Notes: generated from the sequence alone by a model not told the origin. Positions 11,688 through 55,773 are shown, numbered from the stretch's first letter. The stretch is DNA of 64,000 nucleotides from Candidatus Thalassarchaeum betae (GCA_003193925.1 PSPG01000004.1:51720-115719), one strand, 5' to 3'. Translations and numbers: made by a program.

Positions 11688-13697
11688 ATGGAATTCCAAA
11701 ACGATGTGGTGCATGGGATTCCACAATACATGCCCGAAATTAGGGGGTTGGATGACACGGTTGATCACGCTCCTCGCCGGCCCAGCGTCCTGAATGCTTC
11801 TGAGAGTCGGGAAGCCCTGAGCAACGCCCTGAGGTACTTCCCCAAGGATTGGCATGGAGAGCTATCAGCAGAATTTGCTGACGAGTTAAACGCATACGGT
11901 CACATCTACATGCATAGGTTCCGACCCTCATATCCAATGCACGCACGTCCGATTTCCGAGTATCCAGCAAAGATCGGGCAGGCCTCCGCAATAATGATGA
12001 TGATTCAGAACAACCTAGACCCTGTATTAGCGCAATACCCGCATGAGTTAGTCACCTATGGAGGCAACGGCACTGTATTTCAGAACTGGATCCAGTATCG
12101 ACTGACGATGGCGTATCTGGCCAAGATGAATCAGGACCAAACTCTGGTCATGTACTCCGGGCACCCCCTCGGGCTGTTTCCATCCAGCTCAGGAGCACCC
12201 CGAGTAATTATCACTAATGGCATGGTGGTCCCTAACTACTCCTCCCAAGCCGAATACGAGCGCATGAGCGCCATGGGAGTCTCACAATACGGACAGATGA
12301 CTGCTGGCTCTTACATGTACATAGGCCCTCAGGGAATAGTCCACGGGACTACAATAACCATCCTGAATGCTGCTAGGATGTACCTTGGCCTGACTACCGA
12401 TGATGGACTTGGGGGCGTTATGTTCGTCACGTCGGGTTTGGGAGGCATGTCGGGAGCGCAGGCGAAAGCTGCTGTGATTACTGGGGCTGTAGCTGTTATT
12501 GCAGACTGCAATGAGTTCGCGGCCAAGAAGTGTTTCGAACAGGGCTGGCTATCCGAATTACACTACGACCTCGATGGAATCATTGACAGAGCCCTCGATG
12601 CCAAGCGGAACTGCGAGGCTGTGTCATTAGGTTACGTAGGCAATGTCGTAGACCTGTGGGAGGCTTTGTATGAACGGGGGGTTTGTCCTGAACTGGGGAG
12701 CGATCAAACCAGTCTGCATAATCCATGGTTAGGAGGGTATATGCCTGCGGGCCTCAGTTACGACGAAGGACTGGAACTGCTGGAGGCCGATCCCCCGAAA
12801 TTTAGGGAAGCCGTCGAGGCATCGCTTGTCCGCCATGCTGATGCTGTGAACAAACTGACTAAATCTGGTATGCACTTCTGGGATTATGGGAATGCATTCC
12901 TGCTCGAGGCTGGTAAAGCTGGTGCTGATGTGATGGCTCCTGATGGTGTTTCATTCCGCTATCCCTCTTATGTCGAGGACATTATGGGTCCGATGTGTTT
13001 TGATTTCGGATTCGGCCCTTTCCGATGGGTCTGCACATCCTGTTCTGATGAAGACTTGGCTGCAACTGACCGAATCGCAGCCGACATACTGCGCCGTCTC
13101 GCACATATTGCGCCGGCGGAGACCAGGCTCCAGTATCTGGATAACCTGAGATGGATAGAGCAGGCCAGAGAGCACGGGCTTGTAGTTGGCAGTAAAGCTA
13201 GGATCCTCTACGCCGACGAAATAGGTAGAAAGGCTATCGCCTCAGCTTTCAATCGAGCCATCTCAGAGGGAGTTGTTTCAGCGCCTATAGTCCTTGGAAG
13301 GGACCATCATGACGTGGGGGGGACGGATAGCCCTTATCGCGAGACTGCGAATATCAGGGATGGTTCGATGTTCACCGCCGATATGTCGATACAGAATTTC
13401 GTCGGTGATGCCTTTAGAGGTGCTACGTGGGTCAGCCTCCACAATGGTGGTGGTGTTGGCTGGGGCGAAGCCATCAATGGTGGCTTCGGACTAATCATCG
13501 ACGGTTCAGAGGATTCTGAGATGCGGATTCAGTCAGTGCTAGCGTGGGACGTCAATAACGGCATAGCAAGACGTGCATGGGCCCGCAATCCCGGTTCAAT
13601 AGCAACGATCGAACAGGCAATGGGCAGAGAGCCTCTACTCGATGTTACCATGCCAAATTCAGTAGATTCAGAGATACTCAACTCACATTTCAATTAG
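11688..13697 (+). CDS. hutU: Urocanate hydratase (urocanase), long form with a ~90-aa N-terminal extension
   Basis: 669 aa. The conserved core runs 'NNLDP…YGGNGTVFQNW', through the NAD-binding 'GLGGMSGAQ' motif, to the C-terminus. The N-terminal 'LRYFPKDWHGELSAEFADELNAYGHIYMHRFRP' precedes the point where typical ~560-aa bacterial HutU begins. Confidence 0.9.
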   Translation: MEFQNDVVHGIPQYMPEIRGLDDTVDHAPRRPSVLNASESREALSNALRYFPKDWHGELSAEFADELNAYGHIYMHRFRPSYPMHARPISEYPAKIGQASAIMMMIQNNLDPVLAQYPHELVTYGGNGTVFQNWIQYRLTMAYLAKMNQDQTLVMYSGHPLGLFPSSSGAPRVIITNGMVVPNYSSQAEYERMSAMGVSQYGQMTAGSYMYIGPQGIVHGTTITILNAARMYLGLTTDDGLGGVMFVTSGLGGMSGAQAKAAVITGAVAVIADCNEFAAKKCFEQGWLSELHYDLDGIIDRALDAKRNCEAVSLGYVGNVVDLWEALYERGVCPELGSDQTSLHNPWLGGYMPAGLSYDEGLELLEADPPKFREAVEASLVRHADAVNKLTKSGMHFWDYGNAFLLEAGKAGADVMAPDGVSFRYPSYVEDIMGPMCFDFGFGPFRWVCTSCSDEDLAATDRIAADILRRLAHIAPAETRLQYLDNLRWIEQAREHGLVVGSKARILYADEIGRKAIASAFNRAISEGVVSAPIVLGRDHHDVGGTDSPYRETANIRDGSMFTADMSIQNFVGDAFRGATWVSLHNGGGVGWGEAINGGFGLIIDGSEDSEMRIQSVLAWDVNNGIARRAWARNPGSIATIEQAMGREPLLDVTMPNSVDSEILNSHFN

Positions 13698-13710
13698 CGC
13701 GATGTTCTAA

Positions 13711-15270
13711 TTGGCGCATGCCCTGCGACGTTTGATGCCTTTGCGCGTGATAGAGCTGGATGGCTCCTCCCTAGTAGTTGAAGATGTCATAGACGCAGGA
13801 CGTGGTCTGGCTACAGTTTGTATCAGCGACTCGTCTAAAATCACGATGCAAGCTTCCAGAGAAGCCGTATTGAGGATACTCGATAGCGATAGGGTAGTCT
13901 ATGGCATTAACACTGGCTTCGGGGCGTTGTCATCTGTTACGATCGACCCGACTCAACTGGAAGAGCTGCAACGCAATCTAATCCGAAGTCATGCTTGTGG
14001 GGTCGGCGAACGCATGCACCCGGAACACGTGTTGATGATGATGGTCATTCGAGCCAATGCCATAGCCAAGGGCAACTCTGGCGCCAGAGTCGAACTGACA
14101 GAGTTACTGGCGTCGATGGTCAATCACAGAATCGCCCCCGTGATCCCCCGTATAGGCTCCCTGGGTGCTTCGGGAGATCTCGCTCCTCTGTCCCATCTGA
14201 CACTCGGGTTAATCGGCGAGGGAGAATGTAACATCATAGGGGACAACGGCTCCTGGGAAGTTGTCCAATCCGACTCCGCACTTCGCAGCGTCAGACTGGA
14301 GCCTTTAGTGCTCCAAGCCAAGGAAGGGCTGACTCTGATTAACGGGACTAGCCAGATGTGCACATATCTAGCGTTATGCGTGTCTAATCTTGACCATCTT
14401 CTTCTTGCAGCAGATGCTGCAATCTCTTGCTCGCTGGAGGCGATACGGGGTTCACACTCTCCCTTCGATCATCGAATCCACGAAGCACGCCCCCAAGTCG
14501 GTCAATCGATATCGGCAGCCCGAATCAGCGCTCTCCTCGCTGATTCCAGAATCAATGATTCACATGCTGATTGCGATCGCGTCCAAGACGCATATTCGTT
14601 TAGGTGCTCACCACAGGTACACGGCCCGGTGATAGAACTGTTGCGGGAAACTCGCAGGATGCTCGAAATTGAACTGAATAGCGCTACAGACAACCCGCTC
14701 GTCTTCACCGATGGTAAGATGGATGATGTCATCAGCGGTGGCAACTTCCATGGTCAAAACCTTGCTCTTGCAAGCGATTATCTGGCCATCGCATGTCATG
14801 AATTGGCTAGCATCTCCGAGCGGAGGATCAATCAGGTTCTAGACCCTCAGTGGAGCGGTCACAACGCTTTCTTGGCAAACCATGAAGGTTTGGAAAGTGG
14901 CTTGATGATCATCCAGTATGTGGCTGCTGCACTAGTCGCTGAACTTCATTTGATGGCTCAGCCAGCTACTACGAGCAACGTACCTGTCAGTTTAGGAAAG
15001 GAAGACCACGCATCGATGGGCGCCACGGGTACATACAGAACATTCAGAGCCACAGAGTTCCTCTCCCAGGTAATCGCAAATGAGATGATTTGCTCCGCAG
15101 AAGCACTCGACAGAATAGTTGAGAGACCCGGCAAAGGGGTTGCTTGCGTGGCCGATTGGATTAGGTCACATGTCCCTCCTCTCGAAGCAGACAGGGGGAT
15201 GACTGCGGACTGCGAGCGTCTTTCATCAGCCCTGTTGAAGGGAGAGTTGTCCTCCGCTTTGGGGGATTAG
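13711..15270 (+). CDS. hutH: Histidine ammonia-lyase
   Basis: 519 aa. The MIO-forming 'GSLGASGDLAPLSHL' (ASG) motif and overall PAL/HAL fold are present. Confidence 0.9.
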   Translation: MAHALRRLMPLRVIELDGSSLVVEDVIDAGRGLATVCISDSSKITMQASREAVLRILDSDRVVYGINTGFGALSSVTIDPTQLEELQRNLIRSHACGVGERMHPEHVLMMMVIRANAIAKGNSGARVELTELLASMVNHRIAPVIPRIGSLGASGDLAPLSHLTLGLIGEGECNIIGDNGSWEVVQSDSALRSVRLEPLVLQAKEGLTLINGTSQMCTYLALCVSNLDHLLLAADAAISCSLEAIRGSHSPFDHRIHEARPQVGQSISAARISALLADSRINDSHADCDRVQDAYSFRCSPQVHGPVIELLRETRRMLEIELNSATDNPLVFTDGKMDDVISGGNFHGQNLALASDYLAIACHELASISERRINQVLDPQWSGHNAFLANHEGLESGLMIIQYVAAALVAELHLMAQPATTSNVPVSLGKEDHASMGATGTYRTFRATEFLSQVIANEMICSAEALDRIVERPGKGVACVADWIRSHVPPLEADRGMTADCERLSSALLKGELSSALGD

Positions 15271-20272: not shown

Positions 20273-21868
20273 ATGCGCGAGAGTAGATCGAAAACTATGA
20301 GTGGGCTGCCAAGATCCGACGTGCCGACGTCTGATGGAGCCTTATCAGCGGGACATCCTGAGGAAGGGCACCCTCTGCCGGGTCAACCACCTTACACGCG
20401 GGGCATTCACGCTGAGATGTACAAGAGGAAACTCTGGACCATGCGCCAATACGCTGGCTACTCCACTGCTCAGGAGACGAACGAGAGATTCAGAATGCTC
20501 CTCGATGAGGGACAGACCGGGCTCTCGGTGGCATTTGACTTACCGACTCAATTGGGACTGGACTCCGACCACCTCAATTCACTAGGTGAAGTCGGAAAGG
20601 TCGGTGTTGCAATAGACACCATTGAAGACATGCGGGCGTTGTTCGATTCGATTGACCTAAGCGCGGTGTCCACCTCCATGACAATCAATGCACCTGCAAC
20701 CACTCTTCTCGCGATGTACGTGGCAGTTGCCGATGATCAGGGGGTGGAAAGGTCCGCGATCAGAGGCACCGTTCAGAATGACATCCTAAAGGAGTACATC
20801 GCACGAGGGCTGTACATTTATCCCCCGAGTCACTCAATGAGGCTGACAACCGATCTTATGGAATGGTGCAAGGACAATGCACCCAATTGGAACACTATCT
20901 CAGTTAGTGGTTATCATATGAGGGAAGCTGGATGCACTGCTGTTGAAGAAGTGGGGCTCACACTGTCAAATGCCCTGCAATATGCCCGAACGGCGATAGA
21001 TGCAGGTCTATTCATCGATGACTTCGCCCCCAGGATGTCCTTCTTCTTCAGTTCACATAACGACCTACTCGAGGAGGTGGCCAAGTTTCGAGCTGCTAGA
21101 GGTTTGTGGCACGAACTGGTTAATCGGGAGTTCAATCCCGAACACTCGAGATCCAGCCAATTAAGATTCCACACACAGACGGCTGGAGTCACCCTCACAG
21201 CCCAGCAACCCCTCAACAATGCTGTGAGAGTAGCATATCAGGCACTCGCAGCGGTGCTTGGTGGAACCCAGTCCCTGCACACCAACAGTTTCGACGAAGC
21301 TATCGGCCTGCCTACAGCAGAATCTGTTAAGATAGCTCTCCGCACACAACAGATCATCGCTGATGAGACCGGAGTCGCCGATTCTGTCGACCCCTTGGCG
21401 GGTTCGTATCTCGTTGAAGAGATGACCTCTAAGATTTTCTCCGAGGCAAGAATCCTGGTTGACGAAATCGACTCTCGCGGAGGTGCGTTGGAATGTGTGA
21501 AATCTGGGTATCAGCAGAAGATAATCCATGAGAGCGCGTGGACCCACTTGCAGGAGCTGGAGAGTGGGGGGCTCTCTGTGATAGGTATCAATGCCCATGT
21601 TGAGGAAGATAATGTTTCAAGCACTCATGGGCAGAAACTCGACACTGATGCTGTCAGAGAGCAACTGGAGTCATTGCAATCACTGAAGGACTCTAGGGAT
21701 ACCGAAAGCGTTCTCAAAGCTCTAGAACGCCTTAGGGAGGCATGCGAGGGAATGCAGAATGTCATGGACCCCCTGATTCATGCTGTGAAGGAAGGAGCGA
21801 CTGTCGGCGAGGTCAATGGGGTGATGAGAGAGGTTTTCGGGACATGGATGGCACCTAGTGGGGTGTGA
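20273..21868 (+). CDS. mcmA: Methylmalonyl-CoA mutase, large (catalytic, N-terminal domain) subunit
   Basis: 531 aa with strong similarity across the MCM TIM-barrel substrate-binding domain. It has no B12-binding domain, which is the typical archaeal split arrangement. Confidence 0.85.
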   Translation: MRESRSKTMSGLPRSDVPTSDGALSAGHPEEGHPLPGQPPYTRGIHAEMYKRKLWTMRQYAGYSTAQETNERFRMLLDEGQTGLSVAFDLPTQLGLDSDHLNSLGEVGKVGVAIDTIEDMRALFDSIDLSAVSTSMTINAPATTLLAMYVAVADDQGVERSAIRGTVQNDILKEYIARGLYIYPPSHSMRLTTDLMEWCKDNAPNWNTISVSGYHMREAGCTAVEEVGLTLSNALQYARTAIDAGLFIDDFAPRMSFFFSSHNDLLEEVAKFRAARGLWHELVNREFNPEHSRSSQLRFHTQTAGVTLTAQQPLNNAVRVAYQALAAVLGGTQSLHTNSFDEAIGLPTAESVKIALRTQQIIADETGVADSVDPLAGSYLVEEMTSKIFSEARILVDEIDSRGGALECVKSGYQQKIIHESAWTHLQELESGGLSVIGINAHVEEDNVSSTHGQKLDTDAVREQLESLQSLKDSRDTESVLKALERLREACEGMQNVMDPLIHAVKEGATVGEVNGVMREVFGTWMAPSGV

Positions 21869-22290
21869 TGATGAACGATATCACCATCGATCACGTCGGT
21901 ATTGCCACCAGCTCTCTGAGCAAGGCCTCTGGATTCTGGGAGATGCTGGGGTTCATCCGTAGCGGAGACCAACTAAATGAAAATCAAGGCGTTAGGATTC
22001 GGATGTTCGACTCGCCGCGAATTGACGCGAATAATACCAGCATAGAGCTGCTCGAGCCCATTGGTCCGGACTCGCCGATAGGGAGGTTCATCGCAAACAG
22101 GGGAGAGGGTATTCAGCAACTAGCGGTGCGAGTTCCTGACATCCGTGCGATGATTTCCAAACTCTCCGACTCGGGTGTGAGAATGATTAACGAGGAGCCT
22201 GTTCCAGGTGCTTCTGGATCAATAATCGCCTTCGTGCACCCATCTTCCACCGGGGGTGTACTCGTAGAACTCGTCGAACGCCCTGATTGA
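21865..22290 (+). CDS. Methylmalonyl-CoA epimerase (VOC/glyoxalase-fold)
   Basis: 141 aa. 'HVGIAT' and 'FVHPSSTGGVLVELVE' are typical of MCE. Its start overlaps the mutase stop. Confidence 0.8.
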   Translation: MMMNDITIDHVGIATSSLSKASGFWEMLGFIRSGDQLNENQGVRIRMFDSPRIDANNTSIELLEPIGPDSPIGRFIANRGEGIQQLAVRVPDIRAMISKLSDSGVRMINEEPVPGASGSIIAFVHPSSTGGVLVELVERPD

Positions 22291-22324
22291 CAAGCATCAA
22301 AAAGGGGACTGATTTCGGCGTGTC

Positions 22325-22627
22325 ATGCAAAGTTCACTCGAACGCCTCAATCAGGATGGGATTCTGACTTCCAAAGCGGTTTCACAAGAGGTCCGGTTCC
22401 TGTCTGAGACACTGGAGACTCTACTGGACTCGGGTGAGATTTCCACTGATGCCTATCTCGACGCGGGTACCATTCAGGGGGGGCTGTCAGTCTTGGCAAA
22501 CTTGATTGCTCAGGGCGTATCCGCTGAAGAAGCTCGTATCCAACTCCAACAACTGAGAGTCAGGGCCGAGAACATCAACTCGAATTACCCTGAACTCGAT
22601 GGCAAGATCGAGGGAATTCGTCATTAG
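22325..22627 (+). CDS. Hypothetical 100-aa protein
   Basis: ORF with protein-like composition and no recognisable family. Confidence 0.35.
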   Translation: MQSSLERLNQDGILTSKAVSQEVRFLSETLETLLDSGEISTDAYLDAGTIQGGLSVLANLIAQGVSAEEARIQLQQLRVRAENINSNYPELDGKIEGIRH

Positions 22628-22684
22628 TATTACCCCAGTAATACTTAGCGAATACTTATCAATAACGTCACCGGCCGCATATGC

Positions 22685-22867
22685 GTGCCTAAGGTCAGTT
22701 TTGACATACCCAACGAATTGCTCGAAGACCTGCGCCTCCACGTCGGCGATGACAAGAAGTTCGTGTCGCTGGCCGACGCAGTTAGAACCGCTTGCAGGAA
22801 GCTCCTCGATCAACTGGATGCGATCGATGAGATGCATGGCAGAATTCGGAGGAAATCTGATGAGTGA
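22685..22867 (+). CDS. Small ribbon-helix-helix (CopG/Arc/MetJ-like) DNA-binding protein
   Basis: 60 aa. 'PKVSFDIPNELLEDLRLHV…FVSLADAVRTACRKLL' fits the RHH beta-alpha-alpha pattern. Its stop overlaps the folE start by 8 nt. Confidence 0.5.
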   Translation: MPKVSFDIPNELLEDLRLHVGDDKKFVSLADAVRTACRKLLDQLDAIDEMHGRIRRKSDE

Positions 22868-23447
22868 TGCTCCAAGCAGGGAACAGGCCGTTTCGGCCGT
22901 TGACACCCTGGTCAGGTACATCGAGTCTGCAAACGGTGAACTGAGGGAAGGGCTTGCTAGTACCCCGGAGAGAGTCATCGAGTCGTTCGATGAAATCTAC
23001 TCGGGTTATTCTGGCGATGCCAAATCGATACTCGATGCCACATTCAACTCCGAGGGCTATGATGGAATCGTCCTACTGAGGGACATCGAGTTCCATTCGG
23101 TTTGCGAACACCACCTGCTACCATTCACAGGCAAGGCCCACATAGCCTACATCCCAACAGACAGGATTGTCGGAATCAGTAAACTTGCACGGCTGCTCGA
23201 CTTGCATTCCAGCAAGTTGCAGAATCAGGAAAGGCTGACCAAGGGCATCGCGGATGACATCGAGTCGATACTGGCCCCCCTTGGATGCGCGGTGATACTC
23301 GAGGCTACCCATAATTGCATGCAATGCAGGGGAGTCTCTAAGCAGAATGCTGTGATGATTACCAGCGCGATCCGCGGTGCATTCTTTGACAAGCAAGAGG
23401 CTCGAGGTGAACTGCTGCAACTCATCAACATCCAGTCGGACAAGTGA
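22860..23447 (+). CDS. folE: GTP cyclohydrolase I (FolE)
   Basis: 'FHSVCEHHLLPFTGKAHIAYIP' is the zinc-binding CEHH motif region of GCH1. Start placed at the ATG at 22860, which has a GGAGG 7 nt upstream. Confidence 0.85.
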   Translation: MSDAPSREQAVSAVDTLVRYIESANGELREGLASTPERVIESFDEIYSGYSGDAKSILDATFNSEGYDGIVLLRDIEFHSVCEHHLLPFTGKAHIAYIPTDRIVGISKLARLLDLHSSKLQNQERLTKGIADDIESILAPLGCAVILEATHNCMQCRGVSKQNAVMITSAIRGAFFDKQEARGELLQLINIQSDK

Positions 23448-23451
23448 TTCG

Positions 23452-24081
23452 ATGGTACTACTGCCCACCGGTTCTGACCTCGAACAGGTCTTCCCGATAG
23501 TGGAGATCTTTCACAGCATACAGGGAGAGGGTCACAACACCGGGATGTCCTCGGTGTTCATCCGATTCGGTAGGTGCAACCTCAGGTGCCCTTGGTGCGA
23601 TACCGAGTTCGACGAGTGGGAGGACATGACGCTGGGCCAGATCATCAACGAGATCAGCAAGTTCGATTGCGACAGGATCATCCTGACCGGAGGCGAGCCG
23701 GCTCTGCAGGATCTACCAACCCTGTGCGGAGCCCTGGGGGGCATTGGCTACTACATCAGCATCGAGACAAACGGGACTGTCGCGCTGCCCAGCGGCATCA
23801 TCGACTGGATATGCGTCAGCCCGAAGGACCAGGAATACCCGGATGTGGCCATCAGGCAGAGGACCGGGAACGAGTTGAAGGTCGTTAACCTCGGTCAAGA
23901 CCTGTCTATGTACGACGACCTCAAAGGAGGCTTCGACCACCTATATCTGCAGCCCTGCTATGACGAGGGGCAAAGTGTGGAGTGGAACGGGCTCAACTTC
24001 CACGATACTTTCGAGCAGGTACGATCGAGGCCCGAGTGGAGGCTCTCGCTCCAGTCTCACAAATGGATGTGCGTGGAATGA
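23452..24081 (+). CDS. queE: 7-carboxy-7-deazaguanine synthase (QueE, radical SAM)
   Basis: 'VFIRFGRCNLRCPWCDT' is the QueE-type Cx14CxxC cluster motif. Start placed at the ATG at 23452, 4 nt after the folE stop. Confidence 0.8.
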   Translation: MVLLPTGSDLEQVFPIVEIFHSIQGEGHNTGMSSVFIRFGRCNLRCPWCDTEFDEWEDMTLGQIINEISKFDCDRIILTGGEPALQDLPTLCGALGGIGYYISIETNGTVALPSGIIDWICVSPKDQEYPDVAIRQRTGNELKVVNLGQDLSMYDDLKGGFDHLYLQPCYDEGQSVEWNGLNFHDTFEQVRSRPEWRLSLQSHKWMCVE

Positions 24082-24860
24082 GCAGGGTGGTAATGGCGTT
24101 CAGCGGAGGCATGGACTCGACAGCTCTTCTACTGAGGATGCTGGCAAGAAGGAGTGAAGTCACCTGCATCTCGTACGACTACGGGCAGAAGCACATATTG
24201 GAGTTGCAGAGGGCGGCTGCGAACATCGAATACCTACAATCCAAGGGTTACGAGGTCGAGCACCACGTTGCTGACCTATCCAGCGCCATGGCGCTGTTCG
24301 ACTCGGCCCTCACTGACTCTCAAATCTCCGTGCCTGAAGGCCATTACGAGGAAGAGCAGATGAAGCAGACCGTGGTGCCCAACAGAAATGCCATCTTCTC
24401 CTCGATCCTCTACGGCTACGCGCTCTCTGTCTCATCGAAGGAGGACGTGGATGTCTCCGTGGCTCTAGGGGTGCACTCCGGGGACCACGCAATCTACCCT
24501 GACTGCAGGCCGGAGTTCTACGATGCCCTGATGCAGGCTTTCAAGGCTGGAAACTGGGACTCTCATAGAGTGACGATGGATCTGCCATATGTGGATGGGG
24601 ACAAGGAGAGTATCCTCAGAGATGCGATGGTTTCGTGCGATAGTCTCGGAGTTGACTTCGACACCGTCTTCCGGAACACCAACACCTCTTACAGCCCGGA
24701 TCAATTGGGGCGCAGCTCGGGCAGAACTGGGGCCGATGTGGAGAGGATACTGGCATTCCATGCCATAGGCCGCAAAGACCCCGTCGAATATGTAGTGGAC
24801 TGGAGTACGGTGCTTGAGCGCGCGCTAGCCATAGAGAAGGAATACGAGGCGGCAATATGA
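24078..24860 (+). CDS. queC: 7-cyano-7-deazaguanine synthase (QueC)
   Basis: 'VVMAFSGGMDSTALL' is the PP-loop SGGxDS motif and a C-terminal zinc-binding cysteine region is present. ATGA start/stop overlap with queE. Confidence 0.85.
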   Translation: MSRVVMAFSGGMDSTALLLRMLARRSEVTCISYDYGQKHILELQRAAANIEYLQSKGYEVEHHVADLSSAMALFDSALTDSQISVPEGHYEEEQMKQTVVPNRNAIFSSILYGYALSVSSKEDVDVSVALGVHSGDHAIYPDCRPEFYDALMQAFKAGNWDSHRVTMDLPYVDGDKESILRDAMVSCDSLGVDFDTVFRNTNTSYSPDQLGRSSGRTGADVERILAFHAIGRKDPVEYVVDWSTVLERALAIEKEYEAAI

Positions 24861-25276
24861 CGGGCTCCCGACCGAGATTCAACCACGACAGAGATCCTGT
24901 CTGGAGGTCTGACCTCACACAACTCCAGTACCACGTTACCAGGGAGGCAGGCACTGAGATGCCGAACTCGGGCATTTACAACATGGAGGAGAGGGACGGT
25001 TCCTACTACTGCATCTGCTGCGGACACATACTCTTCACTGCGGAGATGAAATACCACTCGGGGTGCGGCTGGCCCGCCTTCCACACCGAGCACGCTGACG
25101 CTGGCATACGCAGGATCGAGGACAATAGCCAGGGTAGGAAGCGGACAGAGGTCAGGTGCAGTTCATGCGACGCCCACCTCGGTCACGTGTTTAATGACGG
25201 GCCCAATCAGTTCGGCGGCGAGAGGTACTGCATCAACTCGGCCAGTATGGACTTCGTAGCGGAGGGAGGCGCATGA
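24857..25276 (+). CDS. msrB: Peptide methionine sulfoxide reductase MsrB
   Basis: Two CxxC zinc motifs, 'GCGWPAF', and the catalytic 'RTEVRCSSCDAHLGHVFNDGP' are present. ATGA overlap with the queC stop. Confidence 0.85.
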   Translation: MTGSRPRFNHDRDPVWRSDLTQLQYHVTREAGTEMPNSGIYNMEERDGSYYCICCGHILFTAEMKYHSGCGWPAFHTEHADAGIRRIEDNSQGRKRTEVRCSSCDAHLGHVFNDGPNQFGGERYCINSASMDFVAEGGA

Positions 25277-25722
25277 GTACATCAATCCGGAGGTGGGTAG
25301 AGACAGACACCGGCCACAGGGTTCCCAACCACAGGAGCAAGTGCCGGAACCTGCACGGCCACAGGTACAGATGGGAGGCAGAGCTCGAAGGGGAAGTGGT
25401 GACCCGGGAAGGCGTTTCCGAAGAGGGAATGCTGATCGACTTCGGAGACGTCTCGGAGATACTGGAGGAGCAGATCCACGATGTCGTCGATCACGCATTC
25501 ATCGTCTATGAGGGTGATGCCGAGGCCATGCAGGCGTTGTCAGTCATGGGCGATGACCACAAGACTCTGGTAGTGCCGTTCGTCCCTACGGCCGAGAACC
25601 TCGCCAAGTGGGCATTCTCAGTAGTCGAGTCGCACATCACAACTGCCTATGGCAATGATTTGAGGCTGGTAGCCTTCCACGTCAGGGAGACTCCCAAGTC
25701 CTGTGCCAGTTGGCGTCTCTAA
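25273..25722 (+). CDS. queD: 6-carboxy-5,6,7,8-tetrahydropterin synthase (QueD)
   Basis: 'CRNLHGHRY' is the C-x-x-H-G-H zinc/catalytic motif of QueD/PTPS. ATGA overlap with msrB. Confidence 0.8.
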   Translation: MSTSIRRWVETDTGHRVPNHRSKCRNLHGHRYRWEAELEGEVVTREGVSEEGMLIDFGDVSEILEEQIHDVVDHAFIVYEGDAEAMQALSVMGDDHKTLVVPFVPTAENLAKWAFSVVESHITTAYGNDLRLVAFHVRETPKSCASWRL

Positions 25723-25739
25723 TTCGCCAAACTCAGTCC

Positions 25740-26489
25740 TTAGGGACTGTTCTGCTCGAAGGCAACGGTAGCAGCCGAGATGACCCCGAGGATCCTGTGG
25801 GCCTCGTCATCTGAAGGCAGGCCACGTAACATCACCCTAGACAGTGTCTCCTCGATGCCCTGGCGCCTGTGATCCCGGGTCGGCATGGTTCTGGCCAACT
25901 TGGAAATCTCCTCCTTCAGCCGCATACGCAGTTCGGGGCTCAGCAACGTGTGATCGGCTGGCTCTGAATCTGGGGCCTTGTACCACTCATAGCAGAGAAT
26001 TGCTACTGCATGGCTGAGATTGAGTATCGGGTACCCCTCCCACGTAGGCACTGACACCAGTAGATCGCAGATGTTCAGCTCCTCGTTCAACAGGCCCTTG
26101 CCCTCGGGGCCGAACACCAGGGCAATCCTAGAATCCGTATCCTTCACTCTGGAAGCAAGGTCTTCAGGATTCAAGAAGTGCCGGAAGGCCGTCTTGTCTC
26201 CGGATTCTCTCTTACCAGATGTCCCGACTACCAGTGAGCAGTCACTGGAGGCGTCCCCTATGGCATCGAACGAGGTTGCACCATCGAGGACCCATTGTGC
26301 GTGCTTCGCACGATTCCGGGTTTCCTCGGACCACTCAATGCCTCCGCCCACAACCCTGAGATCTGAGATTCCGAAGTTCGCCATAACTCTCGCTACCGCG
26401 CCGATGTTGCCGTCGTTCTCCGGCCTCACCAATACTACGCAGACGCGTTGGGATATACTTGGCAGGGGGGCTTCCTGATGATCTCCCAC
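25740..26489 (-). CDS. SpoU/TrmH-class (SPOUT) RNA 2'-O-methyltransferase
   Basis: 'VVLVRPENDGNIGAVARVMANFG' and the C-terminal SPOUT knot region are present. It lies downstream of the ribosomal-protein genes on the same strand. Confidence 0.75.
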   Translation of the reverse strand: MGDHQEAPLPSISQRVCVVLVRPENDGNIGAVARVMANFGISDLRVVGGGIEWSEETRNRAKHAQWVLDGATSFDAIGDASSDCSLVVGTSGKRESGDKTAFRHFLNPEDLASRVKDTDSRIALVFGPEGKGLLNEELNICDLLVSVPTWEGYPILNLSHAVAILCYEWYKAPDSEPADHTLLSPELRMRLKEEISKLARTMPTRDHRRQGIEETLSRVMLRGLPSDDEAHRILGVISAATVAFEQNSP

Positions 26490-26526
26490 GACTGTCGCAG
26501 GCAGTCATCTCACAAGAGCATGGCAG

Positions 26527-26739
26527 TCAGTCTGTCCGACGCTGCGTGTAGGTGGTGATGTAGCCTGCAATCCAGTTCCTCATCCTCTTGTTCTTCAGAT
26601 TTCCTTCCTCGTCAGCGAGGTCAGTGAATTGTTCGACCAACTTCTTGTTCGTATCGAAGTCATCAGTGAACATATCTGGATAGATTTCTACGAGCCGTAG
26701 GGCCCTAATTTTGATGAAGGAAGGACGTATGTTACCCAT
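26527..26739 (-). CDS. rps17e: 30S ribosomal protein S17e
   Basis: '[37 protein letters not shown]…NWIAGYIT' matches the S17e consensus closely. Confidence 0.85.
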
Positions 26740-26740
26740 T

Positions 26741-27004
26741 TCAGGCCTCCAGTAACTTTACTTCAATCGGGAATCCCTCTTCACGCGTGCAGACTACCTT
26801 GATTTTACGCGGCGGATGTTGCATGCCACGGGCCCAGATAGCGTGATTGATCGCCTCGTCGATCCACAGGTCCTCGTCATCACTCATCTTCATATGCCGG
26901 GCTACGTGCTTGCGTATCTCGGCCATGGCTCTGTTAGCCCTCCGAGTGCGAGGGACGGTCCATGCAGCACGCAATGGGATGGTCATCTCCTTCACCTCAG
27001 CCAT
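26741..27004 (-). CDS. rpl31e: 50S ribosomal protein L31e
   Basis: '[31 protein letters not shown]…[22 protein letters not shown]' matches the L31e consensus. Confidence 0.85.
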
Positions 27005-27008
27005 GCAA

Positions 27009-27164
27009 TCACCTCTGCAGTTTGGAACGGCGCCACATGTGACGCTTGGGGTGAGTATTCACTCTGCGGTTGGTGCGTAGCATCACCCAGACCGGGACAC
27101 GGCGGTTCTGCTTAGTGACCTTGAGAAGTCTCTGCTTCTTTGCGAACGGTTTGTTACTAGACAT
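27009..27164 (-). CDS. rpl39e: 50S ribosomal protein L39e
   Basis: Manual translation gives the 51-aa product [51 protein letters not shown], a clear L39e. It is absent from the ORF track because it is under 60 aa. A GGTGA Shine-Dalgarno-like sequence lies upstream and the gene is tightly packed between the S19e and L31e genes. Confidence 0.8.
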
Positions 27165-27173
27165 GCAATCACC

Positions 27174-27644
27174 TCAATATCCCGAGAGACCGGGATACCT
27201 CTCCTCGGCAGCATCACGGACTGAGTGAGCCATCTCGTCAAGCAGTGCCTGTCCAGATGGAGTCAGTACGCGTCCCAAGTTCACCGTACCTGCCAGATTG
27301 TACTTGCTTGAAATCAAGCCGCATTGGGAAAGCTGCCGTAGAATGGTCCTAGCGATGTTTCGAGAACCGGAGACAGCACGATTCTGCTTGACACCCCGAT
27401 CCTTCGACCCGCCGAACTGCTGTGCCATGTGATTGGCACCGATAGGCCCCATCAAAGCGACCTTTCTCAGGACCGCAGCGGAACGAACGTACCACCAGTC
27501 CTGCTGAACAGGGGGCCTCTCACGATGCGCTCCGGTCTTGGCGTAATCCGCCCAATCCGGTGGCGAGATGGTGTCCAGTGACTGCAGCCGGCCGGCAAGT
27601 CCGTGAATGAGCAAATCGGCAGGAACGTCGTGCAACGTGGTCAT
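27174..27644 (-). CDS. rps19e: 30S ribosomal protein S19e
   Basis: 'PPDWADYAKTGAHRERPP…WYVRSAAVLRKVALMGPIG…GGSKDRG' is the S19e consensus. Confidence 0.85.
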   Translation of the reverse strand: MTTLHDVPADLLIHGLAGRLQSLDTISPPDWADYAKTGAHRERPPVQQDWWYVRSAAVLRKVALMGPIGANHMAQQFGGSKDRGVKQNRAVSGSRNIARTILRQLSQCGLISSKYNLAGTVNLGRVLTPSGQALLDEMAHSVRDAAEERYPGLSGY

Positions 27645-54359: not shown

Positions 54360-55773
54360 TGAGTGCTTCTATTTCATCAATTGTCTTCGGACAATCCGAG
54401 GTCAGCACTACTGGACCGCCCTCGGTGATGAGTACGTCATCCTCTATACGCACCCCTATTCCGGAGTACCTCTCGGGAATCTCGACGTCCGTCCTCCAAC
54501 TGCCGAAGTATAATCCCGGCTCGACGGTTAGGACCATGCCGGGCCCGAGGTCGCGCCCGGGCCCATCATCGCCTTGTCGGCCACCTCCGACATCGTGGAC
54601 ATCAAGTCCCAGCAAGTGCCCCGTACCGTGCATGAAGTAGTTCCTGTAGGGTCCGTCGAAGTCCTCCCCCAGAGCATCCTCTAGTGAGTAGTCTAGGATG
54701 CCGAGGTCAATCAATCCCTGAGCGAGTACGTTAGAAGTCGCATGGTGCATCGCGCTCCACGGTGAGCCTGCTTGGCATGCCTCAATTCCAGCCATTTGCG
54801 CCCTGAGGACGAGTTCGTAAATCTCTCGCTGTGCATCACTGAACCGCCCGTTCACCGGCCAGGTTCTCGTAATGTCGGATGCATATCCCTCGACCTCTGA
54901 TCCGGCATCGACAAGGACGAGATCGCCGCCGGCGATAACAGCATTATTGGCATTGTAGTGGAGGATTGTGGCGTTATCACCGCCGCCAACTATTGTTGGG
55001 TAACTCCAACGGCTCTTGCTCGCGGTGAAATGTCTCTCGATGACGGCTTGTACCTGCCACTCTCCAATATCAGCATAAGCCGCTCGCATCGTCGCAACAT
55101 GGGCCGCAGAGGCGATGTCTGCCGACTCCTGCATCAACTGGATCTCTCGATCGGACTTGCGTACCCGCATCTCATCGAGTATCGAGGATGGGTCAGAAAG
55201 GCTCGTCGGGCCGATGTACTTGGTGTTGCTGTCACGCGACTTGGAGTTCACTGCGCTGTTCACCATCTCATCCAATATCGGATTGAGGCCTGGGATTAGG
55301 TGAATCTGCTTGCAAGCCTCGAAGTGCTCTGCTACCGTTTTCTCCAGATCTTCCAGAGAATGAGCCTCATCGATGGGCCACCCGGAGGCAGCGCCCTCTG
55401 TGCCAACCCTTCGACCCTCCCATATCTCGGTCTTGGTGTCTCGAGGTTGGACGAATAGCGAGGTCGTCCACGCGCCTGAGTCGTAATGAGACATCAGAAC
55501 GGCTCCGGGCTCATTCCACCCACACAGATAGAGCATGTACGAACTGGCACGAAACGGGTAATGGACGTCATTGGAGCGATTCGCGTGGGGATTGGTGGGA
55601 ATCAGCACCAAGCTGTCGGACGGAATCTGCCCTAGGAATTCAGACTGGCGCCCGCGATACTCGGCCTCGGAGAATGCAAGCTCAGCCATACGTCTCGCCG
55701 GGCTGTCGACTAGAGGCCCGTTCTTAGGGGTGTGGGAAGTCGAAGACGTCAGTTTTCGTTGCCGGACTTCCAT
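54343..55773 (-). CDS. pepP: Xaa-Pro aminopeptidase (M24B family)
   Basis: 'HGTGHLLGLDVHDVGG' and the upstream metal-ligand residues form the pita-bread fold. An N-terminal creatinase-like domain is present. Confidence 0.85.
   Translation of the reverse strand: MEVRQRKLTSSTSHTPKNGPLVDSPARRMAELAFSEAEYRGRQSEFLGQIPSDSLVLIPTNPHANRSNDVHYPFRASSYMLYLCGWNEPGAVLMSHYDSGAWTTSLFVQPRDTKTEIWEGRRVGTEGAASGWPIDEAHSLEDLEKTVAEHFEACKQIHLIPGLNPILDEMVNSAVNSKSRDSNTKYIGPTSLSDPSSILDEMRVRKSDREIQLMQESADIASAAHVATMRAAYADIGEWQVQAVIERHFTASKSRWSYPTIVGGGDNATILHYNANNAVIAGGDLVLVDAGSEVEGYASDITRTWPVNGRFSDAQREIYELVLRAQMAGIEACQAGSPWSAMHHATSNVLAQGLIDLGILDYSLEDALGEDFDGPYRNYFMHGTGHLLGLDVHDVGGGRQGDDGPGRDLGPGMVLTVEPGLYFGSWRTDVEIPERYSGIGVRIEDDVLITEGGPVVLTSDCPKTIDEIEALIGSDR

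What the first reader, a model, noticed from the sequence alone, without database searches (positions are those of the whole stretch)
22685..25722. preQ0/archaeosine operon folE-queE-queC-msrB-queD with embedded msrB and an overlapping upstream RHH gene
Five genes are translationally coupled. Four junctions show ATGA-style overlaps and the RHH stop overlaps the folE ATG. FolE, QueD, QueE and QueC make preQ0, which is the precursor of archaeosine (G15 of archaeal tRNA). Methionine sulfoxide reductase B is inserted between queC and queD with overlaps on both sides, so it must be co-expressed. This suggests an oxidative-stress link to tRNA modification, or protection of the radical-SAM or zinc enzymes. 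The small CopG-like RHH protein encoded immediately upstream is a candidate dedicated regulator.
Basis: partly seen in the sequence, partly recalled or inferred. Interest (0 to 1): 0.55.

Follow-up and report, generated by a model that had tools for sequence, protein, structure and literature searches.

The report
Regulated archaeal preQ0 operon carrying MsrB
A marine group II archaeon has a compact operon for the tRNA-modification precursor preQ0, preceded by a small DNA-binding-type protein and a conserved triple-repeat operator; the protein-repair enzyme MsrB sits next to QueC here, and in about half of related species the two are fused into one protein, a link nobody seems to have described.

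Summary
On the + strand at 22685-25722 lie RHH-like (60 aa), FolE, QueE, QueC, MsrB and QueD. Three junctions are ATGA overlaps. RHH/folE overlap by 8 nt. folE/queE have a 4-nt gap, not an overlap.

The window is from a marine group II archaeon (Poseidoniales). In 64 related Poseidoniales loci traced, the order RHH-folE-queE-queC-(msrB)-queD is conserved.
- msrB is present in 54 of these.
- In 33 of them QueC and MsrB form one ORF.
- All MsrB catalytic and zinc residues are invariant.
- The fused protein occurs in more than 120 protein clusters from independent assemblies.
- At 50% clustering there is only one fused representative, so the fusion is confined to this lineage.

Upstream of the RHH gene are three palindromic heptamers (GTAWTAC) spaced 11 bp apart, abutting a TATA-like box about 30 nt before the start codon.
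- The tandem motif is unique in the 64-kb window.
- It sits at a fixed position in 48 of 57 relatives.

Best reading: a leaderless preQ0 operon, probably autoregulated by the RHH-like protein, with MsrB obligatorily co-produced with QueC. Why MsrB is linked is unresolved. The tRNA archaeosine fate of preQ0 was not tested. Full-text searches found no prior description.

The parts
22627..22633 (.). Operator-like heptamer 1 (GTATTAC), a palindromic GTAWTAC unit
   Evidence: The tandem GTAWTAC-N4-GTAWTAC motif is unique in the window (2 overlapping hits against 0.09 expected). It is conserved in 48 of 57 related loci.
22638..22644 (.). Operator-like heptamer 2 (GTAATAC), 11 bp after unit 1 and 47 nt before the RHH start
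   Evidence: In relatives this unit starts 45-49 nt before the RHH start in 38 of the 49 loci that carry the motif (window included), and at 46 nt in 23 of them.
22649..22655 (.). Operator-like heptamer 3, degenerate (CGAATAC), 11 bp after unit 2 and directly abutting the TATA-like box
   Evidence: 2-mismatch hit at 22638-22655. The consensus across 49 loci is AGTAaTACTctAgtAATACTtata.
22656..22663 (+). TATA-like box (TTATCAAT; consensus TTATA in relatives), 22-29 nt before the RHH start codon, implying a leaderless or nearly leaderless mRNA
   Evidence: Direct reading. That it acts as an archaeal promoter is an inference from its position, not a measurement.
22685..22867 (+). 60-aa ribbon-helix-helix-like protein (GTG start), candidate autoregulator of the operon
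   Evidence: It is 63-90% identical in all related loci and sits just upstream of folE. It has 1083 homologues, which sources name 'Arc/MetJ-type RHH' or 'CopG family'. The AF2 model has an extended N-terminus and two helices. There is a weak in-register hhalign match to the NikR RHH domain. No Pfam hit and no specific fold-search hit.
22860..23447 (+). GTP cyclohydrolase I (FolE, type IA), first step toward preQ0. Its start overlaps the RHH stop by 8 nt, and a GGAGGA Shine-Dalgarno-like motif lies upstream.
   Evidence: Pfam PF01227, E=7.7e-61. NCBIfam NF006825, 214.8 bits against a cut-off of 174. Junction and Shine-Dalgarno-like motif.
23452..24081 (+). QueE, the radical-SAM 7-carboxy-7-deazaguanine synthase, with a CNLRCPWC cluster motif. 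A 4-nt gap follows folE.
   Evidence: Pfam Radical_SAM, E=2.5e-9. The five best NCBIfam hits are all QueE models, but all are below their equivalog cut-offs (126.6 bits against 240).
24078..24860 (+). QueC (7-cyano-7-deazaguanine synthase) of a cysteine-poor subfamily. It has the PP-loop SGGMDS but no Cys4 zinc motif in its C-terminal part. ATGA overlap with queE.
   Evidence: Pfam PF06508, E=1.1e-39. TIGR00364 gives 126.4 bits against a cut-off of 150.3 and covers profile positions 2-187 of 201. Solved QueC structures align only to residues 1-168. The C-terminal motif NTxTSYxPDxxGRSxGxxGxDxERILAF is shared with Pirellulaceae QueC.
24857..25276 (+). MsrB (methionine-R-sulfoxide reductase). It keeps both CxxC zinc motifs, GCGWPAF, HLGHVF and the catalytic RYCINS. 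ATGA overlaps on both sides.
   Evidence: Pfam SelR, E=5.5e-46. TIGR00357 gives 161.8 bits against a cut-off of 113. All catalytic and zinc residues are invariant in 52 operon-encoded MsrB sequences. It is fused in frame to QueC in 33 related loci.
25273..25722 (+). QueD (6-carboxytetrahydropterin synthase) with a CRNLHGH motif. It is the last gene of the unit and is preceded by a GGAGGGAGG Shine-Dalgarno-like motif.
   Evidence: Pfam PTPS, E=1.8e-26. TIGR03367 gives 81 bits against a cut-off of 89.25.

Best explanation
**What it is.** This is the preQ0 (7-cyano-7-deazaguanine) biosynthesis operon of a marine group II archaeon (order Poseidoniales, on the Thalassarchaeaceae/MGIIb side).

**Transcription (inferred).** Transcription probably starts at or next to the GTG of a 60-aa RHH-like gene, from a TATA-like box about 25-30 nt upstream. 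It then runs through folE, queE, queC, msrB and queD as one tightly packed message. The internal genes carry Shine-Dalgarno-like motifs or stop/start overlaps.

**Regulation (inferred).** Three palindromic GTAWTAC heptamers, spaced one helical turn (11 bp) apart, lie immediately upstream of the TATA-like box. The last one abuts it. The most likely mechanism is that dimers of the RHH-like protein bind cooperatively to these repeats. That would block promoter access, so the protein represses its own synthesis and that of the whole pathway. The signal it responds to is unknown.

**Pathway.** FolE, QueD, QueE and QueC convert GTP to preQ0. In Archaea preQ0 is normally inserted into tRNA and matured to archaeosine. 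That is established knowledge and was not tested here.

**MsrB.** MsrB is a catalytically intact methionine-R-sulfoxide reductase. It was captured beside queC before the two Poseidoniales families diverged. Since then it has been kept either translationally coupled to QueC or fused to it. It is therefore produced together with QueC, and at exactly 1:1 in the fused forms.

**Why MsrB is linked.** I think selection for joint production or physical association with QueC is somewhat more likely than pure hitch-hiking. The biochemical reason is not shown.
For: **Gene identities and junctions:**

**Organism:** QueC homologues are named marine group II/III euryarchaeote. Related loci come from Poseidoniales MAGs.

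**Conservation:** the same gene order is present in about 60 species-level loci. It is followed by a convergent trmJ-like gene and by the S17e, L31e and S19e genes.

**msrB linkage:**
- Of 64 loci, 33 are fused, 21 are separate (mostly a 4-nt overlap) and 10 lack msrB.
- There are two fusion architectures, of 362 aa and 380-387 aa.
- All 120 best hits to a fused protein are QueC+SelR proteins from NCBI, JGI, ENA, Tara and Logan, on contigs up to 1.78 Mb.
- Only one full-length fused representative exists at 50% clustering among 1.84 billion proteins.
- Both CxxC motifs, CGWP.F, HLGH.F and G.RYCINS are invariant in 52 MsrB sequences.
- On a tree built from six other linked genes, at least 8 changes among fused, separate and absent states are needed. 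MsrB is present in both major clades.
- The AF2 model of a fused protein has pLDDT 82 and pTM 0.81, with one continuous helix (residues 256-274) across the junction. Its halves match solved MsrB and QueC structures.

**Operator:**
- The tandem motif is unique in the 64-kb window (2 overlapping hits against 0.09 expected).
- It is found upstream of the RHH gene at a fixed position in 48 of 57 loci, against 5 hits in 726 kb elsewhere.
- The consensus was derived from 49 loci.
- The RHH gene stays with the que genes even where 2-4 kb separate it from the upstream MCM-epimerase block.

**No RNA switch:** no Rfam family, and so no preQ1 riboswitch, was found in 21800-26600.
Against: - Nothing here measures transcription, DNA binding or enzyme activity.
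- QueC, QueE and QueD all score below the NCBIfam equivalog cut-offs. Their exact activities are therefore inferred from family membership and pathway context.
- Ten related loci lack msrB but keep the same QueC type. Pirellulaceae use the same QueC subfamily with no msrB nearby. QueC therefore does not need an adjacent MsrB.
- Unrelated genes have also been inserted into this operon in some lineages: a membrane protein in MGIII and a trypsin-like protease in L022. The operon tolerates passengers.
- No tRNA-guanine transglycosylase or archaeosine synthase was found among the ten long ORFs of the window that I tested.
Confidence: 0.6

Rival explanations
1. MsrB is a neutral passenger. A compact, steadily expressed housekeeping operon was simply a convenient place for msrB to land. 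In a streamlined genome with ATGA stop/start overlaps, small indels readily fuse or split neighbouring genes. On this view the QueC-MsrB fusions carry no functional meaning beyond shared expression.
For: - Other unrelated genes were inserted into the same operon in some lineages.
- msrB was lost at least three times without loss of the operon.
- The same QueC subfamily works without a neighbouring msrB in Pirellulaceae.
- No QueC residue was found that tracks the presence of MsrB.
- The MsrB residues conserved are simply those of any working MsrB.
Against: - Adjacency specifically to queC is kept in 54 of 64 loci across both families.
- It survives at least 8 changes of state among fused, separate and absent.
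- Fusions of two different architectures persist in 33 species-level loci and in more than 120 protein clusters.
- The fused model has a continuous junction helix and pTM 0.81, which suggests a fixed two-domain body rather than beads on a string.
- The other passengers are each confined to one small lineage.
Confidence: 0.35
2. The MsrB domain has a role inside the 7-deazaguanine pathway. For example, its nucleophilic cysteine might act on the nitrile of preQ0 or of preQ0-tRNA. Gat-QueC and QueF-like enzymes are known fusion or replacement solutions for archaeosine formation. On this view QueC-MsrB is a new bifunctional pathway enzyme.
For: - QueC fusions with a pathway partner have a precedent in Gat-QueC of Crenarchaeota (my knowledge of the literature, not tested here).
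- The fusion is widespread and structurally tight.
- No arcS or tgtA was seen in the parts of the window that I scanned.
Against: - Every residue of the standard Msr catalytic cycle is invariant, including the recycling cysteine in CGWP and both histidines. The domain is 40-50% identical to the best-matching solved MsrB enzymes. That fits unchanged Msr chemistry.
- Ten lineages lack the gene.
- There is no positive evidence of any kind for a new substrate.
Confidence: 0.04
3. The 60-aa protein is not the factor that reads the heptamer repeats. It could be a small accessory subunit or chaperone of the pathway, for example of FolE, to which it is translationally coupled. The repeats would then be bound by another regulator, or be part of an unusual promoter.
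For: - No RHH family model or solved RHH structure matches it significantly.
- It is as conserved as the enzymes (63-90% identity), which is high for a small regulator.
- Its C-terminal LDQLDxIDxRHGR segment has no known role.
Against: - The sequence pattern fits an RHH: a short N-terminal strand-like segment (KVSLDMP), then helix, G-D turn, helix.
- There is an in-register alignment to the NikR RHH domain.
- Independent annotation pipelines call it Arc/MetJ or CopG type.
- Tandem repeats at helical-turn spacing beside the gene's own promoter are the classic RHH autoregulation layout (established knowledge).
- In MGIII the gene is separated from folE by another gene yet keeps the repeats upstream.
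Confidence: 0.15
4. The cluster supplies preQ0 for something other than tRNA archaeosine, such as 7-deazaguanine modification of DNA or a deazapurine secondary metabolite.
For: - The end use was not tested.
- QueC, QueE and QueD are divergent, scoring below the equivalog cut-offs.
- The QueC domain of the fusion model also resembles Cap9, a QueC-like defence protein (rank 36).
Against: - The operon is a single-copy, syntenic, core-genome feature. It sits beside ribosomal protein genes and a TrmJ-type tRNA methyltransferase in about 60 species.
- No DpdA-like, transglycosylase, defence or mobile-element genes lie next to it.
- The close QueC relatives in Pirellulaceae are solitary housekeeping genes.
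Confidence: 0.05

Closest known systems
Bacterial queCDE(F) operons (for example B. subtilis ykvJKLM) and archaeal preQ0 gene clusters
   Same: They share the enzyme set that takes GTP to preQ0: GTP cyclohydrolase I, QueD, the radical-SAM QueE and the PP-loop QueC. The genes are clustered and co-directional.
   Different: - No preQ1 riboswitch or any other Rfam element is present. A small RHH-like protein gene and a triple-heptamer operator take that place.
- An msrB gene is embedded between queC and queD.
- QueC lacks the Cys4 zinc motif.
- QueC, QueE and QueD fall below the NCBIfam equivalog cut-offs.
Ribbon-helix-helix autoregulators (Arc, Mnt, CopG, MetJ, NikR N-terminal domain)
   Same: - It is a small protein with an N-terminal strand-like segment and two helices.
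- The gene lies directly behind tandem, short, palindromic repeats at helical-turn spacing that overlap its own promoter.
- There is a weak in-register alignment to the NikR RHH domain.
   Different: - No Pfam or PDB match by sequence or by fold search.
- It has a long second helix with a conserved LDQLDxIDxRHGR tail of unknown role.
- It is translationally coupled to a biosynthetic operon, and no ligand domain is evident.
Fused methionine sulfoxide reductases (MsrA-MsrB, PilB Trx-MsrA-MsrB)
   Same: The MsrB domain has the complete catalytic and zinc signature and is joined to another enzyme in one polypeptide.
   Different: The partner here is QueC, a nucleotide-modification enzyme with no role in sulfoxide repair. 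In the window itself the two are separate genes with a 4-nt overlap.
Gat-QueC fusions of Crenarchaeota (glutamine amidotransferase fused to QueC, an archaeosine synthase substitute)
   Same: QueC is fused to a second catalytic domain in an archaeal lineage.
   Different: The partner in Gat-QueC belongs to the same pathway. MsrB has no known pathway role. This comparison rests on my knowledge of the literature and was not tested here.

Membership tests
preQ0 pathway: GTP cyclohydrolase I (FolE, type IA) | Full-length match to the GTP_cyclohydroI/FolE models above the curated cut-off; conserved CEHH and H-x-C-M motifs | tested here: met
   PF01227, E=7.7e-61. NF006825 gives 214.8 bits against a cut-off of 174, and TIGR00063 gives 194.8 against 181.6. 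The CEHH and HNCMQCRG motifs are read directly in the translation.
preQ0 pathway: QueE (7-carboxy-7-deazaguanine synthase) | Radical-SAM cysteine triad and a match to a QueE equivalog model above its cut-off | tested here: inconclusive
   The CNLRCPWC (CX3CX2C) motif is present, and Pfam Radical_SAM is above its cut-off. The five best NCBIfam hits are all QueE models, but the best scores 126.6 bits against a cut-off of 240.
preQ0 pathway: QueC (7-cyano-7-deazaguanine synthase) | PP-loop SGGxDS ATP-binding motif and a match to the QueC family model | tested here: met
   The SGGMDS motif is present. PF06508 gives E=1.1e-39 and covers profile positions 2-208 of 210. TIGR00364 gives 126.4 bits, below its equivalog cut-off of 150.3.
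preQ0 pathway: QueC (7-cyano-7-deazaguanine synthase) | C-terminal four-cysteine zinc site of canonical QueC (known from the B. subtilis and Pectobacterium structures; established knowledge) | tested here: not met
   - The window QueC has only three Cys (C30, C143, C187). None lies in the segment NTNTSYSPDQLGRSSGRTGADVERILAF.
- The same holds for almost the whole subfamily (a few members have a single Cys in this segment), including Pirellulaceae.
- Solved QueC structures align only to residues 1-168.
preQ0 pathway: QueD (6-carboxytetrahydropterin synthase) | PTPS fold with the Cys-x3-His-Gly-His motif, and a match to the QueD equivalog model | tested here: inconclusive
   PF01242 gives E=1.8e-26. 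The CRNLHGH motif is present. TIGR03367 gives 81 bits, just below its cut-off of 89.25.
MsrB / SelR methionine-R-sulfoxide reductase | SelR domain above the cut-off; catalytic Cys in RYCINS; recycling Cys in GCGWP; HLGHVF histidines; two CxxC zinc motifs | tested here: met
   - PF01641, E=5.5e-46. TIGR00357 gives 161.8 bits against a cut-off of 113.
- All listed residues are invariant in 52 operon-encoded sequences.
- The fused model matches solved MsrB structures with target TM-score up to 0.75 and 46-50% identity.
- Enzyme activity itself was not measured.
Ribbon-helix-helix (Arc/MetJ/CopG) DNA-binding proteins | Significant match to an RHH family model or to a solved RHH structure | tested here: not met
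   - No Pfam family matched, even at E up to 10, that is an RHH family.
- NCBIfam YlcI/YnfO gives 17.2 bits against a cut-off of 30.
- The profile search of PDB sequences found nothing relevant.
- hhalign to NikR gave E=0.0047 but a probability of only 7.5%. hhalign to CopG gave nothing.
Ribbon-helix-helix (Arc/MetJ/CopG) DNA-binding proteins | Strand-helix-helix topology forming an intertwined dimer | tested here: inconclusive
   - The AF2 monomer model has residues 1-9 extended and helices at 10-20 and 23-59, with pLDDT 79.
- A dimer could not be modelled with these tools.
Ribbon-helix-helix (Arc/MetJ/CopG) DNA-binding proteins | Binds tandem or inverted short repeats, typically overlapping its own promoter | not testable with these tools
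   A suitable site exists: three GTAWTAC units at 11-bp spacing at a fixed distance from the start codon, conserved in 48 of 57 loci. Binding itself needs an experiment.
Archaeosine (G+15) tRNA modification system | Presence of archaeal tRNA-guanine transglycosylase (ArcTGT) and of an amidine-forming enzyme (ArcS/RaSEA, QueF-like or Gat-QueC) in the same genome | not tested
   Ten long ORFs of the window were scanned and none is a TGT or ArcS.
preQ1-riboswitch-controlled que operons | A preQ1-I, preQ1-II or preQ1-III riboswitch in the leader | tested here: not met
   No Rfam match at E up to 1 in 21800-26600 on either strand. There is also almost no leader, because the TATA-like box lies about 25-30 nt before the start codon.

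The most novel reading that the evidence does not exclude
QueC and MsrB form a real functional unit in Poseidoniales: a bifunctional enzyme or a fixed complex. In it, MsrB would keep the cysteine-poor, zinc-free QueC (or the pathway) active under the strong oxidative stress of sunlit surface water, or would make preQ0 synthesis redox-responsive. The whole unit would be under a previously unknown dedicated RHH repressor that reads a triple GTAWTAC operator. This would be the first protein regulator described for 7-deazaguanine synthesis in Archaea, and the first direct link between methionine-sulfoxide repair and tRNA modification.
Probability: 0.25. Interest if true: 0.7.

Novelty: new variant of a known kind. 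Interest (0 to 1): 0.55.

Why it matters
Poseidoniales are among the most abundant archaea in the surface ocean, and none has been cultured. Conserved genomic signatures are therefore the main route to their physiology.

The finding offers three things that can be tested.

1. **A regulator-operator pair for preQ0 synthesis in Archaea.** In bacteria this pathway is controlled by riboswitches. I know of no protein regulator, and my literature searches found none. Here the candidate regulator is 60 aa and its candidate operator is sharply defined and conserved, so a gel shift with a synthetic 45-bp DNA would settle the question.

2. **A QueC-MsrB fusion seen only in this lineage.** It is present in about half of the species, and annotation pipelines label it as only one of its two halves. 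By Rosetta-stone logic this predicts a functional link between protein methionine repair and 7-deazaguanine synthesis. That link is absent from the literature I could search.

3. **A QueC subfamily without the zinc-binding cysteines.** It is shared between these archaea and planctomycetes. This bears on what the zinc site in canonical QueC is for.

If MsrB turns out to be a mere passenger, the result is still a clean example of operon capture followed by repeated fusion and fission in a streamlined genome.

Tried and rejected
1. **MsrB as a replacement for QueC's lost zinc knuckle.** Rejected as the main idea. Lineages without msrB, and Pirellulaceae, have the same cysteine-free QueC C-terminus.

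2. **A methionine in QueC that tracks MsrB presence.** None was found. The PP-loop Met (SGGMDS) and the QMK Met are conserved whether or not msrB is present.

4. **Profile comparisons of the RHH-like protein.**
   - hhalign against NikR (also from memory) was in register but of low probability.
   - A Pfam scan of 21 family members at E up to 10 gave only noise.

5. **Sigma-70 promoter and intrinsic terminator scan of 22200-26000.** Counts were at chance level, and the scan is not designed for archaea.

6. **Rfam scan for a riboswitch.** Nothing found.

7. **Search for tgtA or arcS in the window.** Ten long ORFs were scanned with Pfam. They are MetRS, urocanase, histidine ammonia-lyase, a TPR protein, a molybdopterin oxidoreductase, an M6 peptidase, topoisomerase, aminopeptidase P, an amidohydrolase and one ORF with no hit.

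8. **Look-up of the window's exact QueC.** Only a 1.2-kb Logan contig was found, which was uninformative.

9. **Assembly or frameshift artefact as the source of the fusions.** Rejected. Fused proteins come from many independent sources and from long contigs. The 362-aa type carries an in-frame deletion rather than a frameshift.

10. **The heptamers as a general promoter element or as the terminator of the upstream gene.** Rejected. The tandem motif is unique in 64 kb. It keeps a fixed distance to the RHH start whatever gene lies upstream.

Full report
**1. What is in the sequence**

Between 22685 and 25722 the + strand carries six genes with almost no non-coding DNA.

| Gene | Coordinates | Note |
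|---|---|---|
| RHH-like, 60 aa | 22685-22867 | GTG start |
| FolE | 22860-23447 | |
| QueE | 23452-24081 | |
| QueC | 24078-24860 | |
| MsrB | 24857-25276 | |
| QueD | 25273-25722 | |

- The queE/queC, queC/msrB and msrB/queD junctions are ATGA overlaps.
- The RHH stop overlaps the folE start by 8 nt (ATGAGTGA).
- folE and queE are separated by 4 nt.
- Pfam and NCBIfam confirm all five enzymes.
- FolE and MsrB score above their curated equivalog cut-offs.
- QueE (126.6 bits against 240), QueC (126.4 against 150.3) and QueD (81 against 89.25) score below theirs. They are divergent members whose activity is inferred from family, motifs and pathway context. The motifs are CNLRCPWC in QueE, SGGMDS in QueC and CRNLHGH in QueD.
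- Shine-Dalgarno-like motifs precede folE (GGAGGA), queD (GGAGGGAGG) and msrB (GAGG). None precedes the RHH gene.
- Downstream, convergent after 17 nt, lie a TrmJ-type tRNA methyltransferase gene and the genes for ribosomal proteins S17e, L31e, L39e (assigned by eye from the ORF translation) and S19e.
- Upstream lie the genes for methylmalonyl-CoA mutase, its epimerase and a 100-aa protein with no family match.

**2. Whose genome it is**

- The closest QueC proteins are from marine group II/III euryarchaeota.
- A scan of one genome per species returned 80 loci. About 62 are from Poseidoniales MAGs: Poseidoniaceae, Thalassarchaeaceae and a few MGIII.
- The remaining 16 or so are from Pirellulaceae and other Planctomycetota.
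- On a tree of six linked genes the window groups with Thalassarchaeaceae-type loci.

**3. Conservation of the operon**

- tblastn with the window proteins against all loci shows the same order in essentially every archaeal locus: RHH, folE, queE, queC, (msrB), queD, then the convergent trmJ-like gene and the r-protein genes.
- The upstream MCM/epimerase/100-aa block is separated from the RHH gene by 2-4 kb in many loci.
- The RHH gene stays glued to folE, with junctions from -26 to +14 nt. The exception is MGIII, where a membrane protein gene has been inserted between them.
- The RHH gene therefore belongs to the que unit, not to its upstream neighbours.
It is not met.

**4. msrB: embedded, often fused**

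- Tracing ORFs through the tblastn hits shows three states among 64 loci. QueC and MsrB share one ORF in 33 loci. They are separate genes, mostly with the same 4-nt overlap as here, in 21. msrB is missing, with queC overlapping queD directly, in 10.
- There are two fusion architectures. One is a 362-aa form in which the last QueC helix is trimmed and runs straight into MsrB (...EGALKAQLRHYVMKENGTE...). The other is a 380-387-aa form that keeps the full QueC C-terminus.
- The fusions are not artefacts. Two fused clusters already appeared among the QueC homologues. A search with one of them returned 120 fused clusters at 72% identity or more, from NCBI, JGI, ENA, Tara and Logan, on contigs up to 1.78 Mb.
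- NCBI names these proteins only 'MsrB' and JGI only 'QueC'. The fusion has gone unnoticed by annotation.
- Among 1.84 billion representatives at 50% identity there is a single full-length fused representative. The fusion is therefore confined to this lineage.
- In 52 operon-encoded MsrB sequences, both CxxC zinc motifs, CGWP.F, HLGH.F and G.RYCINS are invariant. The domain is under selection as a working methionine-R-sulfoxide reductase.
- An AF2 model of a fused protein has pLDDT 82 and pTM 0.81, with a continuous helix (residues 256-274) across the junction. Its halves match solved MsrB structures (target TM-score 0.75) and QueC structures (target TM-score 0.71-0.75). A pTM this high for a two-domain chain hints at a fixed domain arrangement. 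I could not inspect the interface.
- On a neighbour-joining tree of six other linked genes, MsrB is present in both major clades. At least 8 changes among fused, separate and absent states are needed.
- On the QueC tree the 362-aa fusions form one group. On the linked-gene tree they are split between the two clades. This may mean that the fused gene moved between families. These are quick distance trees, so I treat the point as a lead.

**5. Why MsrB? What the data allow**

- QueC in this lineage has no cysteines where canonical QueC binds zinc. Solved QueC structures align only to residues 1-168.
- I tested the idea that MsrB, which is a zinc protein, compensates for this. It does not hold. 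The msrB-less Poseidoniales lineages and Pirellulaceae have the same cysteine-free C-terminus. In Pirellulaceae this QueC type is a solitary gene among housekeeping genes (ComM-like, a WYL regulator, RlmKL).
- No QueC residue, methionines included, tracks the presence of MsrB.
- The operon has also accepted other passengers in narrow lineages: a 279-aa membrane protein in MGIII and a trypsin-like protease in L022.
- Against pure hitch-hiking stand the order-wide persistence of the queC-msrB adjacency, the repeated fusions, and the compact fused model.
- I therefore rate selected coupling somewhat above neutral passenger, and a new pathway chemistry for MsrB as unlikely. None of these is shown.

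**6. The RHH-like protein and its operator**

- The 60-aa protein is 63-90% identical across the order. It has 1083 homologues, which JGI calls 'Arc/MetJ-type RHH' and NCBI 'CopG family'.
- It matches no Pfam model and no solved structure by sequence.
- The AF2 monomer model shows an extended N-terminus (KVSLDMP) and helices at 10-20 and 23-59.
- Fold searches were uninformative.
- An hhalign comparison with the NikR RHH domain is in register but weak.
- Family membership is therefore plausible, not proven.
- The stronger evidence is in the DNA. Directly upstream lie three palindromic heptamers 11 bp apart: GTATTAC (22627-22633), GTAATAC (22638-22644) and the degenerate CGAATAC (22649-22655). 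TTAT follows immediately.
- The tandem motif occurs nowhere else in the 64-kb window, against 0.09 expected.
- In the related loci it lies upstream of the RHH start in 48 of 57 cases, with the tandem hits concentrated at -57 and -46. Only 5 hits occur in 726 kb of other sequence.
- The consensus over 49 loci is aaTAtTAct..AGTAaTACTctAgtAATACTtata.
- The TTATA sits 24-28 nt before the start codon. That is where an archaeal TATA box would direct a leaderless transcript.
- Palindromic units one helical turn apart, with the last one abutting the TATA-like box of the regulator's own gene, are the textbook layout for cooperative RHH repression. That mechanism is my inference.
- No Rfam element is present, so there is no riboswitch control of the bacterial kind.

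**7. Comparison with what is known, and novelty**

- The enzymes are the known preQ0 pathway, and MsrB is an ordinary MsrB.
- Three things differ from every system I could find or recall. One is the protein regulator with its defined operator, where bacteria use riboswitches. The second is the order-wide embedding of msrB next to queC and its frequent fusion to it. The third is the zinc-site-free QueC subfamily shared with planctomycetes.
- Full-text searches found nothing on any of these. The term pairs were QueC+MsrB, Msr + 7-cyano-7-deazaguanine + fusion, Poseidoniales + archaeosine, RHH + preQ0, and Marine Group II + Msr.
- I class the finding as a new variant of a known kind.

**8. Limits**

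- There are no expression, binding or activity data.
- The tRNA archaeosine fate rests on general knowledge of Archaea. No tgtA or arcS was found among the ten long ORFs of the window that I scanned, and the rest of the genome was not available.
- The trees are quick distance trees.
- The fused-protein model was judged only by its summary scores.

Noticed in passing
window 24078-24860; loci L061, L063, L064, L067-L077, L080, L081: The cysteine-poor QueC subfamily, which lacks the Cys4 zinc motif, is shared at 57-61% identity between Poseidoniales archaea and Pirellulaceae/Planctomycetota. In the planctomycetes it is a solitary gene among housekeeping genes. This looks like an inter-domain transfer of queC.
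   Followed up: partly
proteins P0243, P0244, P0262, P0269, P0273: Several QueC homologues of 420-734 aa carry an intein (Pfam Intein_splicing/Hint) inserted after about residue 145-155 of QueC.
   Followed up: no
L049:4973-5812 (MGIII) and L022:5126-6391: Other genes have been inserted into the same operon in narrow lineages. In MGIII a 279-aa predicted membrane protein lies between the RHH gene and folE. In L022 a 421-aa trypsin-like serine protease with a membrane anchor lies between folE and queE. MGIII also uses a QueD only about 25% identical to the window's.
   Followed up: partly
L018 (contig NZFX01000056.1): The record title says 'Phycisphaerae bacterium isolate MED703', but the contig carries the archaeal operon together with genes for archaeal ribosomal proteins S17e, L31e and S19e. 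It is very likely a mis-binned Poseidoniales contig.
   Followed up: no
window 22325-22627 (+): This 100-aa ORF has no Pfam or NCBIfam match. It is conserved at 34-62% identity after the methylmalonyl-CoA mutase and epimerase genes in most related loci. Its stop codon touches the first operator heptamer in the window.
   Followed up: no
window 25740-27644 (-): A TrmJ/YjtD-type tRNA 2'-O-methyltransferase gene and genes for ribosomal proteins S17e, L31e, L39e and S19e lie convergent to the operon. This neighbourhood is conserved in nearly all related loci, so two tRNA-modification functions sit back to back.
   Followed up: partly
QueC tree versus linked-gene tree: The 362-aa QueC-MsrB fusions form one group on the QueC tree, but their host loci fall into both major Poseidoniales clades on a tree of six neighbouring genes. 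This suggests that the fused gene was exchanged between the two families, or that the quick trees are unreliable.
   Followed up: partly
window 55749-57311 (-): This 520-aa ORF has no Pfam family at E up to 1e-5. It lies beside an aminopeptidase P gene.
   Followed up: no
window 11688-15270 (+): Histidine utilisation genes (urocanase and histidine ammonia-lyase) are adjacent. A methionyl-tRNA synthetase gene lies at 5415-7634. Both fit a heterotrophic marine archaeon.
   Followed up: no
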